Positions 43,594 to 62,243 of a DNA stretch of 64,000 bases are shown here, in pieces; the stretch's first letter is position 1, and each line of letters begins with the position of its first letter. Under the pieces are notes generated by a model that saw nothing but the letters and a program-made list of their open reading frames with translations, was not told the DNA's origin and made no database searches. Location of the stretch: contig OX597826.1 in the NCBI GenBank assembly GCA_951406725.2, positions 49,724,001-49,788,000 of the forward strand, read 5' to 3'. Source of the DNA: Octopus vulgaris. Lineage: Eukaryota. The position numbers and the translations under genes are program-made.

Positions 43594-43686
<93 letters not shown>

Positions 43687-44123
43687 ATATGTATGTATGT
43701 ATGTATGTATGTGTGTATGTATGTATGTATGTATGTATTATGTATGTCTGTATGTATGTGTGTGTATAATTTGGGAAAACAAATTTCCAAATCAATCAGG
43801 TGTAACTCTACAGCATTATATGCATCTACATATCGTACTTTGGGATCTTATTTATCGTATATTTATATATTTATCTATAAATATACAAAGTATCTGATAA
43901 AAGTCAATATTCAATTTTGGGGGATTAATCGATATGCGGGTATTCTATTTCAGATAATGCAAAAATTATCTAATGAGTATATCTTACAGTAAACTCATGG
44001 TACCAGTTTGCACATTACGAAATAGTACTTAAAGGATATAACTAATATTTCCAGATGGGTATATAATGTACTTCATTATTTATATCATACTTTAGTTAAT
44101 ACTTATATTTATTAAATATGAAG

Positions 44124-44257
44124 GAACTACACGTGTTTCAATATTGGAAGATTACAATATATATACATATACACGACTGTATACCCATATATATACATAT
44201 ATAAATACATATATGCAATCGTCAGATTTACAATTATTCCAACACATCTTCAGGTTC
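44124..44257 (-). ncRNA. Type I hammerhead ribozyme with extended stem II (predicted)
   Basis: Minus strand GAAC-CUGAAGA-UGUGUUGGAA...UUCCAAUAUU-GAAA-CACGUG-UA-GUUC. Confidence 0.7.
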
Positions 44258-44261
44258 TATT

Positions 44262-45064
44262 TCAAAATATTATATAACTAATTTTACATCCCTTTAAAAA
44301 TAAGCAATACAAGTAAGCATTAAAGATTAAAAATTACGAATTAAAAATTAAGAATAAAAATTATACTTTGTAATATAAAGAATTAAAATTTATAAATTAT
44401 GCATTATAAATATGAATTAGTGTATATATCAATCATGTAAAATCAAGTATATGCCAAATACAGAATGTGGGATATAAGATTAAACATTAGAATAAAAATG
44501 TCTGTGTTTAAAGGTGATATATAACAAGAAAAATTCAAATACATATCTTCCATTTTTCTTCTTTTTTTTTGCTGGTACTAAAATGGTGATTTGAGGAAGA
44601 AGATAGTAGGGAACTATGGGTATTTATAGGTGATTAGTATCAAGGGGGGTAATTACACTATACATGGTTTTGATTTTAAATTACCCGCTATTATTATTTT
44701 CAAATTTACTTATATTGGGAGGTATATCAAATTTGTTATATAATTTTAGTAATATCTAATTCATATATTTATTTTATTTTAATTATTGCATTATTTATTT
44801 TTTATATAGTCTATTCAAGTGATTTAAAAATAAAATTATGTGGTTAATTATGCGGTATTTGACATATACTTGATTTTACATGATTGATATATATATACTA
44901 ATTCATATGTATAATGCATAATTTATAAATTATAAATTTGTAATTCTTAATATTACAAAGTATAATTTTTATTCTTAATTTTTAATTCATAATTTTTAAT
45001 CTTTAATGCTTAATTGTATTGCTTATTTTTAAAGGGATGTAAAATTAGATATGTAATATTTTGA
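44262..45064. repeat. ~200-bp AT-rich inverted repeat (44262-44461 / 44855-45064)
   Basis: CTAATTTTACATCCCTTTAAAAATAAGCAATACAA matches the reverse complement at ~45015-45050, colinear over the arm. Confidence 0.9.
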
Positions 45065-45069
45065 TAAAC

Positions 45070-45692
45070 GCAGATACGGTAGAACATTAAACAATAGCGT
45101 CTTTCCATCCCAGATCGAATGGAGAGGCAGAGCTTTTTGTGGAGACTTTTAAAAGAGCATTGAGAAAAGCAAACATGGAAACCACAGGCTAAGTTGCTCT
45201 GCAGCAATTCCGAACCCCGATACACCAGCAGGAAGCTCACCAGCTGAACTGATGTTTGTGAGGAAGGTGAAATTAGTTTCTGGTAATCTGTTACCTGGCT
45301 AGAAATGAAAAAGTACCAGGAAAGACAACCCAAAAATTTTTCAAAATTAGTGATAAGGTGTACATGAGGTCGTATAAAAACGGAAAACAATACTGGGGAG
45401 AAGGAAAAGCCACAAAGTACATAGGGAAAATGATGTACGGAATTAAAAGCAGAAAACGTATTGAAAAAGGACACAGAAACCAATTGAAGAAGAGATTCAT
45501 AGAAAATGAACCAGATTGGAAGAACCTATGGAATGGCTGTATGACACATTCCAGGTACCAACACCGTTACAAGTAGTTGTACTCACGCATACAAGTGGAA
45601 GAAAAAGGAAGAACACAGAGTTCCTACAAATAGACGCCAAAAAGAAAAAAAGTACTAAGTTGAGGAAAAAACGCTAAAAAGGGAAGAAGGGT
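45070..45692 (+). pseudogene. Gypsy-type LTR retrotransposon integrase C-terminal remnant
   Basis: FHPRSNGEAELFVETFKRAL, GSSPAELMF, DKVYMRSY..W..G..HRNQLKKRF, polypurine run AAAAAGGGAAGAAGGG then TG. Confidence 0.8.
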
Positions 45693-60115: not shown

Positions 60116-62086
60116 TTAGATAAAACTTAGATGTGTTTCGACCAGAGATTGGTCCAGGCCATGTCTAACTTAATAGCACCACCTGATAGGATTATTCGAA
60201 TCCTGTTTAAGTCAAGTTTTGTTCAAGTAGTGAGTTCTTGTTGGGTGAGTTGTATCCAGTTTTGTTCAAGTAGTGAGTTCTTGTTGGGTGAGTTGTATCC
60301 AATTATGGGTGGCTTGTCTGGTATTCTTTGAAGGAATCTATCCAGACTCTGTTTGAAGTTGATGGGATCCTTTTCCTCTTTGATCTCCCTCGGGACAATG
60401 TTAAATAGGGCAGGGCCTGTTGAGGAAAAGAAATTATGTTGCAGTGTACATGTATGTTGTGATCTTGAATTTGGCAGGGGACGTATAGCCCGTGGTCCAA
60501 GTCTCGGATGAACCTTGAAGCTAATGTTTAGGTCGTTTGGGCAAAGTTGGCGGTATATTTTCCACATCGTACAAATGATGTACCGCTCACGGCGACGCTG
60601 GAGGGAGTAAAGTTTCAAGGCTTTAAGGCGATCCCAATAGTCGAGAGCAGCCATGCCTTCAATTTGTTTAGTAAGAGCCCTCTGGGGTGACTCAATTCTG
60701 GAGATGTTTTGTCTTGTGTGAGGAGACCACAGTGGGCAGCAGTATTCAAGGTGTGGCCGTACAAAGGATGAAAAAAGTGGTATGATGACACCTTGTTCTC
60801 TGGACCGGAAAGTTCTTAAGATCCAGGAACTCATCCTACGAGCTGTATCGACCTTCTTGTTGATGTGTGCACTCCAACTGAGATCGTCATCAACAATTAC
60901 ACCCAGGTCTCTGATATTGTTGGAGGCTGTGAGCGGTTCCCCTGAAGGAAGAGAGTATGGTTGTTTTAGTGAGGAATTTCTTCCAAAATGCATCAGCTCA
61001 AATTTTCCCTCATTCAGTTGCATTTTGTTTCTGTCTGCCCATTGACTCACAGCATATAGGTCAGACTGGAGTTGAGTTCGGTCTGCTTCTTCATTGACGA
61101 TTTGCTGGAGCTTAGTGTCATCAGCGAATATTTTCACTTTGCAGTGATGTACGACACTGGAAAGGTCGTTTACATAAATTATGAAGAGTAGCGGACCCAA
61201 AACAGTTCCCTGGGGAACACCGCTGGTGACTTTTGCTGGGTTTGAGTGGACTCCATCAACTACAACATGTTGTGTTCTATTCGCTAGGAAATACTGAATC
61301 CAGTGTAGAACTTTTCCACGGATTCCAACATTTGCCAATTTTGAGAGTAGGATGTTATGGTCTACCCTGTCGAACGCTTTACTGAAGTCAAGGTATATGA
61401 CGTTAGAGTTCGAACCTGTTCCCAAGGCTTTGAGTACATCTTCAAGGTGGTGTAAGAGCTGTGTTAGACAGTCCCTGCCACAGCGAAAGCCATGTTGATT
61501 TGAATTTAGGAGTTTGTGGGTCTCCAGGAAGTCAGCTATCCTTGATCTTAACACTCTTTCAAACACTTTAATGATGTGGGAGGTGAGTGAGATTGGGCGA
61601 TAGTTGACTGCGAGGGATCTGTTTCCCTGTTTGAAAACCGGGATGACCGACTGGGATAGAAACTTTTTCGGTATATAACCTGCGTCTAACGAGTTTCTCC
61701 AGAGGTTGGTCAGAGGGACTGCAAGTTGATATCTACATTCCTTCAGGAGACTGGCGGGAAATCTATCAGGGCCTACAGCGGAGTAATGTTTGACCTCATT
61801 TATTGCTGCTACGATGTCGGTGGCAGTGAAGGTTATGTCTGCGATTTTGTGTTGGGAGTCAGCTTCGTTCGTTTCCCTCACATCAATATCAGTGGGAACA
61901 CTGAAGACAGAGCAATATTGTTTCTGCAGTATTTCTGCCATTTCTTTAGCATCGTGTTGGGGAATGCCGTTTTCATCAATCAATGGCCCAATAGGTGAGA
62001 CAGTGGTTCTATGCTTATTTGCATAAGAATAGAACACTTTTGGGTTCTGTTTGATGTTTTTGATTACCCATTGTTCCTCCACAGCT

Positions 62087-62089
<3 letters not shown>
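60111..62089 (-). mobile_element. 5'-truncated CR1-clade LINE inserted in (TA)n
   Basis: Contains RT ORF; 3' end TCTAAGTTTTA tandem; (TA)n on both flanks. Confidence 0.92.
60223..62082 (-). CDS. LINE ORF2 reverse transcriptase (5'-truncated, uninterrupted 619 aa)
   Basis: [52 protein letters not shown]; no endonuclease domain and no true start codon. Confidence 0.92.
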
Positions 62090-62162
<73 letters not shown>

Positions 62163-62243
62163 AGGTTAATCCAAACGGGAAAACAGAAAAAACAACAACA
62201 CGTGGAACAATTACAGTATTATTATTATTATATATATATTATT

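What the first reader, a model, noticed from the sequence alone, without database searches (positions are those of the whole stretch)
44124..44257. Second U-U hammerhead with ~107-nt stem II containing a microsatellite
Its stems are unrelated to the 14172 HHR, yet it has the same CUGAAGA-U...U-GAAA core, GUA site and palindromic stem III (CACGUG). Stem II pairs UGUGUUGGAA/UUCCAAUAUU and extends into a further hairpin around AT repeats; stem I can continue past an internal loop. Recurrence of U10.1-U11.1 in two families argues for a real variant. The long insert would likely defeat ordinary motif searches.
Basis: partly seen in the sequence, partly recalled or inferred. Interest (0 to 1): 0.7.

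Follow-up and report, generated by a model that had tools for sequence, protein, structure and literature searches.

The report
Long-armed hammerhead of Hydra-type retrotransposon
This is a real hammerhead-ribozyme motif in a truncated, likely inactive copy of a multi-copy Penelope-like jumping gene; its U-U mismatch is already published for this group of elements, and only the very long, AT-rich side arm is unusual, although self-cutting, predicted to need a pair of RNAs, is untested.

Summary
The motif is there as described (minus strand, 44257-44124; predicted cut after 44128) and is not chance. It lies in the pseudo-LTR of a Penelope-like retroelement family with at least 100 copies. The family ORF has Hydra-clade marks (RMKWK, SDKT, CxCX5C). 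The window copy is a 1.1-kb 5'-truncated fragment with an inverted 5' piece and no partner ribozyme.

U10.1-U11.1 is real (72 of 82 and 83 of 86 copies) but known. Perreault 2011 reports it, an axolotl U-U hammerhead cleaves, and 14 of 26 published Hydra-clade rows have it. It is therefore likely inherited, not recurrent. The G-U next to it is this copy's mutation; the family has G-C.

The 107-nt arm exceeds published Hydra arms (12-26 nt), and Rfam misses it. It is labile: 77-450 nt among copies, 16-70 nt in sister families. Its TA apex attracts insertions and 5' truncations. The core is conserved more than the flanks (p=4e-4); stem II is not. Folding predicts monomer off, dimer on. Cleavage is unshown.

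This scan already noted long-armed Hydra hammerheads elsewhere in this genome. Verdict: a modest variant of a known kind.

The parts
43765..44849 (-). 5'-truncated copy of a Penelope-like element (Hydra-type): 3' UTR, hammerhead, then the 5'-UTR tail, i.e. a pseudo-LTR-only copy without ORF
   Evidence: 44849 matches L031 just after the ORF's last stop; 44130-43766 matches the stretch ending about 20 nt before the ATG of tandem copy L282; 21 of 100 copies end at 43765-43766
44855..45064 (+). inverted 5' piece (91% copy of 44262-44461); stops 5 nt short of stem I, so carries no second ribozyme
   Evidence: inverted 5'-truncated copies are a described PLE layout (PMC8557442)
44254..44257 (-). 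stem I 5' strand GAAC (extension UGAA at 44264-44261)
44247..44253 (-). core C3-A9, CUGAAGA
   Evidence: intact in 82 of 104 family halves
44246..44246 (-). U10.1
   Evidence: U in 72 of 82
44237..44245 (-). stem II 5' strand GUGUUGGAA
44150..44236 (-). long stem II interior; fixed arms with an AT-microsatellite apex at about 44157-44217 that expands, takes insertions and is where many copies start
44219..44225 (-). second CUGANGA box (CUGACGA) inside the insert; no stem II abuts GAAA from it; relic or chance
   Evidence: CUGANGA in 69 of 104; ATGAYGA in 12 of 104
44141..44149 (-). stem II 3' strand UUCCAAUAU (family majority ends in C)
44136..44140 (-). U11.1 then G12-A13-A14-A15.1
   Evidence: U in 83 of 86
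44129..44136 (-). 8-nt palindrome ACACGUGU, predicted intermolecular stem III
   Evidence: (-10.3 kcal/mol duplex)
44124..44128 (-). A17 (predicted cut between 44128 and 44127) and stem I 3' strand GUUC
   Evidence: cut site inferred from the hammerhead consensus
43600..43763 (.). TA/CATA microsatellite at the element's 3' junction (likely target site)

Best explanation
The motif is the type I hammerhead in the pseudo-LTR of a Hydra-type Penelope-like retroelement family, here in a truncated and likely inert copy, and it is predicted to cut only as a pair of RNAs joined through the ACACGUGU palindrome. Shown: the anatomy, the family, the ORF link, the conserved core, the tandem layout that puts the cut about 385 nt upstream of the next ATG, and three fixed 3' ends. 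Predicted: alone, the RNA misfolds, with the stem II 5' strand pairing to the palindrome or to the 3' flank. Two copies (tandem pLTRs of one transcript, or two RNAs) would swap strands into a double hammerhead and cut after GUA, likely slowly and likely helped by the element's protein. Inferred: cutting processes tandem precursor RNA, but new copies were made from uncut or re-ligated RNA, since they run across the site and none of those sampled starts at it. U-U is an inherited, tolerated clade variant. The long arm is likely tolerated length: a dimer-type hammerhead that does not use loop I-loop II contacts would leave loop II free to grow by AT slippage.
For: Repeat: 481 candidates, 40 scored at 89-100%; 100 exact hits of the 17-nt 3' half, control 0 (a lower bound). 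ORF link: L031 carries RT thumb, CSC-RDKTK-C and a YIG motif, ending about 590 nt before the core. Full-length broken copy L277 has RMKWK and SDKT; L082 has CLLC and KCRH. These are the Hydra features of PMC8557442 section 11. Seven EN rows of this family form one clade, 99/100. Core mismatch 11 of 409 against flanks 345 of 4947, p=4e-4, and stem I 8 of 276, p=0.006, in copies fetched by ORF or 3' flank. Across families stem I varies with pairing kept (GAAC/GUUC, CCAC/GUGG, UUGG/CCAA) and the palindrome varies as a palindrome (CACGUG, CAAUUG, CGAUCG, CAUAUG). Monomer stem II pairing probability is 0.07-0.29; the constrained double hammerhead equals or lies within 0.8-3.4 kcal/mol of the dimer MFE for three window extents. 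3' ends cluster at 43906-09 (28), 43858-60 (14) and 43765-66 (21) of 100. 0 of 30 copies fetched with the post-cut flank start at the cut. Arm lability: 77-450 nt in 20 of 30 pattern hits; 16-70 nt in sister families 73-96% identical in the EN region. Stem II (48 of 610, p=0.40) and the rest of the insert (61 of 1088, p=0.11) are no more conserved than the flanks. Precedent: PMC4209133, PMC11167929, PMC7229834.
Against: No cleavage data. Pfam recognised none of the 4 ORF pieces scanned (one weak unrelated hit), and no tree with published Hydra proteins was built, so the clade rests on motifs and on likeness read by eye. The conservation test counts related copies, which are not independent. 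The arm was kept long in all subfamilies aligned, with a possible longer irregular helix, which neutral tolerance does not predict. For two other family copies (L194, L185) the double hammerhead lay 3.8 and 13.6 kcal/mol above the dimer MFE. Alternative folds stay close in energy even in the dimer.
Confidence: 0.8

Rival explanations
1. Same element, but the long arm is a selected functional module: a handle for the element's RT-EN protein, or a TA tract that anneals to (TA)n targets and promotes 5' joining of new copies.
For: A long arm is present in all subfamilies aligned; changes at 44238, 44236 and 44155 shift rather than destroy an extended helix, as read by eye. The insert folds at z=-3.6. 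Of 11 copies tested, 10 lack the 5' half within 10 kb and 9 of those start at 44159-44217. PAc HHR cleaves only with its protein (PMC11167929).
Against: Stem II and the insert are no more conserved than the flanks. AT repeats fold well by nature. Sister families with 16-19-nt arms have long open ORFs. Starts in the apex could be later deletions or insertions over 10 kb, and the sample was selected on the 3' half. Copies that start there lose the ribozyme, which is a cost.
Confidence: 0.2
2. The motif is a catalytically dead relic throughout the family: U-U plus the huge arm abolished cleavage and the sequence just rode along in the pLTR.
For: The monomer is predicted to misfold. No copy starts at the cut (0 of 30). 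HHR mutants did not impair PAc insertion in vitro.
Against: Core and stem I are significantly more conserved than the flanks across subfamilies. U-U hammerheads cleave.
Confidence: 0.12
3. This particular copy has been kept by the host as a regulatory self-cleaving RNA.
For: Its core, stems I and III are intact.
Against: The intact outer box is common by descent (82 of 104). The copy has lost the G-C pair. It has no partner on its strand in the window, as the other two hammerheads lie on the plus strand. Its flanks are a microsatellite and an integrase-like remnant.
Confidence: 0.03

Closest known systems
Hammerheads of Hydra-clade Penelope-like elements (Craig et al. 2021, PMC8557442; passages, section 11, supplement parts 1-2 and searches read)
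   Same: Type I, sense strand, 3' of a C-terminal-EN ORF; U..U flanking stem II in 14 of 26 rows; Hydra-1_cRog has gaac ctgaagat ... tgaa acac a gtgt; (TA)n targets; inverted 5' pieces
   Different: Published spans between CUGANGA and GAAA are 12-26 nt (loops 3-10), against 107 here; most published palindromes carry a central 1-3-nt loop, here none. Two spike-moss PLE-X rows reach about 50 nt.
Minimal/palindromic dimer hammerheads of PLEs (Cervera & de la Pena 2014, PMC4209133, parts 1-2 of 4 read; Lunse et al. 2017, not held, seen only as cited in PMC6765202 passages)
   Same: Short stem I, palindromic stem III, predicted dimer action, low in-vitro activity expected
   Different: Those keep G10.1-C11.1 with one extra nucleotide after A9; here a U lies on both sides, and helix II is 9 bp plus about 87 nt rather than 6-8 bp with a small loop
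U10.1-U11.1 hammerheads (Perreault et al. 2011, PMC3088659, section 8 and passages read; axolotl HHR_Amex2, PMC7229834, section 15 read)
   Same: U-U at the base of stem II, reported as the best-tolerated mismatch; Amex2 cleaves 22% in 1 h as monomer and more as dimer
   Different: Amex2 sits in 350-nt tandem retrozymes and has loop I-loop II contacts; this one is in the pLTR of a protein-coding element, with no such contact evident
PAc Poseidon hammerhead (Frangieh et al. 2024, PMC11167929, parts 1-2 of 4 read)
   Same: pLTR hammerhead upstream of discrete RT start sites that give fixed 3' tails; uncut RNA as main template
   Different: Different clade; there the ORF starts in stem II and the cut is 26 nt into the ORF, here the cut is about 385 nt upstream of the ATG

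Membership tests
Type I hammerhead ribozyme | CUGANGA, GAAA and NUH core joined by stems I-III, stem I open | tested here: met
Type I hammerhead ribozyme | Paired 10.1-11.1 (usually G-C) | tested here: not met
   U-U in 72 of 82 and 83 of 86; not strictly defining, since U-U is a published active variant
Type I hammerhead ribozyme | Core conserved above background, stems covarying | tested here: met
   core p=4e-4 and stem I p=0.006; cross-family pairs; stem II not above flanks within the family (p=0.40)
Type I hammerhead ribozyme | Self-cleavage after H17 | not testable with these tools
   needs an in-vitro assay; RNA reads too few
Rfam hammerhead families | Match to a covariance model | tested here: not met
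   no hammerhead family among 14 matches to E<=10; expected with a 107-nt arm
Dimer-type PLE hammerhead | Palindromic stem III able to pair between two copies | tested here: met
   (prediction only)
Penelope-like element | RT plus C-terminal GIY-YIG ORF contiguous with the ribozyme region | tested here: met
   by motifs and blastp E=1e-62 to sister ORF L072; Pfam silent
Penelope-like element | pLTR tandem layout, inverted 5' piece, discrete 3' tails | tested here: met
Hydra clade of PLEs | RWK-type motif, DKT, CxCX5C linker, CxxC and CxH in EN | tested here: met
   RMKWK and SDKT in L277, CSCRDKTKC in L031, CLLC and KCRH in L082; definitions
Hydra clade of PLEs | Insertion into (TA)n | tested here: met
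   most printed 3' junction examples run into TA repeats (up to 4 shown per end, not counted)
Hydra clade of PLEs | Absence of the CCHH motif; placement in the Hydra clade by RT phylogeny | not tested
   published proteins were read in a supplement but not put into a tree
Hydra clade of PLEs | Generally short (<3 kb) | tested here: inconclusive
   L277 spans about 3.6 kb without its insertion; a tendency in the paper, not a strict criterion
Non-LTR retrozyme | Non-coding tandem 150-450-nt units each with a hammerhead | tested here: not met
   single copy here; the family is joined to an ORF
Neptune clade of PLEs | DKG motif and CX2-5CxxC linker | tested here: not met
   DKT and CxCX5C found

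The most novel reading that the evidence does not exclude
Octopus Hydra-type elements evolved a 100-nt stem II that is a working module. It makes the ribozyme a monomer-off/dimer-on switch, its TA apex serves as a built-in anneal point for (TA)n targets during 5' joining, and copies are made from re-ligated circular RNA spanning the cut.
Probability: 0.15. Interest if true: 0.6.

Novelty: new variant of a known kind. Interest (0 to 1): 0.3.

Why it matters
It shows that PLE hammerheads can carry arms of 100 nt or more, which Rfam misses and which exceed the 7-17-nt core spacer used in PMC8557442. Ribozyme censuses of such genomes therefore undercount. The family also offers a natural series (arms 16-107 nt; U-U, U-A, A-U, A-A, G-C at 10.1-11.1) to test what PLE hammerheads do, which is still open. 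The U-U pair itself adds nothing new, and this copy is likely a fossil.

Tried and rejected
Neptune assignment: my first reading, from recalled motifs; dropped after earlier scan notes pointed to Hydra and searches showed DKT and CxCX5C.

Expression: no RNA holder was listed. Three raw RNA runs of a coded organism gave 37, 37 and 9 reads at 85% likeness or more, on both strands, with no pile-up of ends; one contig run gave 24 records. This is uninformative either way. Contigs of four other runs cover both halves but none spans the microsatellite.

Pfam found nothing relevant in 4 ORF pieces. Rfam over the whole window returned 536 matches; the 150 shown were microsatellite-type artefacts.

Copies starting at the cut: 0 of 30; L044 starts near it but as a deletion junction. 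Inner CUGACGA as an alternative core: rejected, because no stem II abuts GAAA and a sub-lineage reads ATGA. Linking the 14172 family to an ORF: 1 of 20 loci had an EN nearby, but the element sits there in a TA run, so this is unresolved.

The strict two-half pattern gave only 5 hits. The catalogue filter missed most long-arm motifs, so searches were used instead. In one search the stem II pair probabilities used wrong coordinates and were redone. One search was swamped by repeats and redone.

Lunse et al. 2017 is not held; it may already describe U-U or long-arm PLE variants. Searches that found no report of arms near 100 nt or of octopus PLE hammerheads beyond Hydra-1_oBim: (listings only, unless named as read). 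PMC13282606 has no occurrence of 'hammerhead'. Supplements of PMC4209133, PMC3088659 and PMC7229834 were not opened and may hold longer arms. bioRxiv 10.64898/2026.07.22.740005: part 1 of 5 read.

Full report
Observation. The minus strand at 44257-44124 holds a complete type I hammerhead layout: stem I GAAC/GUUC, core CUGAAGA, U, a 9-bp stem II enclosing 87 further bases, U, GAAA, the palindrome ACACGUGU and A17 at 44128. A permissive descriptor found 3 hits in the window (14172, 16189, 44257). Forty shuffled windows gave 6 hits in all and none as strong. A 9-bp closing stem arose in 44 of 5000 insert shuffles. Rfam gives no hammerhead match here.

What it sits in. The stretch is a dispersed repeat: 481 candidates, 40 scored at 89-100%, and 100 exact hits for the 3' half with 0 for the control (a lower bound). 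Longer copies run upstream into an ORF with an RT thumb, a CSC-RDKTK-C linker and a YIG endonuclease motif. That ORF is 43% identical to an 852-aa open frame of a sister family. A full-length but broken copy, L277, has RMKWK and SDKT, and L082 has CLLC and KCRH. These are the marks given for the Hydra clade of Penelope-like elements (PMC8557442 section 11). I first read the element as Neptune from recall and corrected this after earlier scan notes and these tests. Pfam was silent and I built no tree with published proteins. That the genome is likely an octopus is inferred from those notes and from its size and repeats.

The window copy. It spans 44849-43765, begins just after the ORF's end and carries an inverted piece (44855-45064) that stops 5 nt before stem I. 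It ends about 20 nt short of where the ATG lies in tandem copy L282. Family 3' ends cluster at three sites (28, 14 and 21 of 100), like the PLE tails tied to internal RT starts in PMC11167929. It has no ORF and no partner ribozyme on its strand, so it is likely inert.

The U-U pair. It is a true family trait (72 of 82, 83 of 86). The neighbouring G-U is private: 76 of 86 halves have C, as does nearly all contig depth in four other runs. It is not new. [quoted passage not shown] Axolotl HHR_Amex2 has it and cleaves. 14 of 26 Hydra rows in File S2 of PMC8557442 read gat...tgaa (my count). Sister families here show U-U, U-A, A-U and A-A at this position. The match to the 14172 motif is thus likely shared ancestry, though that family's clade was not fixed.

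The long arm. Published Hydra spans are 12-26 nt and two spike-moss rows reach about 50; my searches found nothing near 107, but Lunse et al. 2017 was not available. The arm is labile. Of the first 30 pattern hits, 20 have both halves, with spans of 77-450 nt, and 10 do not. Two of the 10 (L186, L193) have the upstream region by blast but a damaged 5' half. Of 11 copies followed 10 kb upstream (8 of those 10, plus 3), 1 had the 5' half 1.5 kb away and 10 had none, 9 of them starting at 44159-44217. The TA apex holds nested insertions: a 14172-family element in L202, another window repeat (likely a SINE) in L198, and 2.9 kb in L277. A sister clade, 73-96% identical internally in the EN region, has arms of 16-19 and 39-70 nt (ribozymes assigned to ORFs by proximity; 27 rows, none dropped).

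Selection. In copies fetched by ORF or 3' flank, the core differs from the majority at 11 of 409 sites against 345 of 4947 in the flanks (p=4e-4), and stem I at 8 of 276 (p=0.006). Stem II (48 of 610, p=0.40) and the rest of the insert (61 of 1088, p=0.11) do not differ from the flanks. Copies are related, so these p values are indicative. Against pure neutrality, every subfamily aligned kept a long arm.

Mechanism. As a monomer the RNA is predicted to misfold: stem II pairs have probability 0.07-0.29 and the centroid pairs the stem II 5' strand with the palindrome. With two copies, the double hammerhead equals the dimer MFE for 44120-44262 and lies 0.8 and 3.4 kcal/mol above it for two longer extents. 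Four other family copies gave gaps of 1.0, 3.1, 3.8 and 13.6. This fits the dimer model and low activity reported for PLE hammerheads and protein-assisted cleavage in PAc. In a tandem transcript the cut would fall about 385 nt before the ATG. Copies run across the site, and 0 of 30 fetched with the post-cut flank start at it, so templates were likely uncut or re-ligated. RNA data were too thin to test cleavage.

Verdict. A real motif, a Hydra-type PLE hammerhead with a known U-U variant and an unusually long but labile arm. Earlier notes of this scan report long-armed Hydra hammerheads on other pieces of this genome; a look-up by this sequence found none. New variant of a known kind; interest 0.3.

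Noticed in passing
window 16189-16274 (+): Third hammerhead, G10.1-C11.1, 59-nt stem II, palindrome ACAAUUGU; a high-copy family (1793 candidates), often with a nearby inverted copy; 1 of 20 loci has a divergent EN upstream.
   Followed up: partly
window about 14047-14245: The 14172 hammerhead belongs to a short two-armed fold-back element between TA runs (678 candidates). The window copy lacks part of the mirror arm's core, and stem III is ACAG/CUGU with an 8-nt loop, so it may work as a monomer. One such element sits inside the TA apex of a copy of the 44124 family (L202).
   Followed up: partly
window 44219-44225 (-): A second CUGANGA box inside the arm, followed by UUGC as in Hydra Penelope-HM ribozymes; possibly a relic of a duplicated 5' half. 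CUGANGA in 69 of 104 halves.
   Followed up: partly
window about 45090-45260 (+): Broken frame reading FHPRSNGEAELFVETFKRALRK, like a Ty3/Gypsy integrase core (recalled likeness, not searched); the element's inverted end abuts it.
   Followed up: no
window 60223-62238 (-): 671-aa stop-free frame with RT-like motifs ([15 protein letters not shown]), likely a CR1/L2-type LINE (recalled).
   Followed up: no
L066-L104 (G000, several contigs): Sister PLE clade with many 820-860-aa open frames containing a long Asn-rich insert between RT thumb and linker; likely young.
   Followed up: partly
window 23223-23681: Tandem of a 183-nt repeat (2.5 copies) that is also common elsewhere in the window and was found inserted in the ribozyme arm of L198; likely a SINE.
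   Followed up: no
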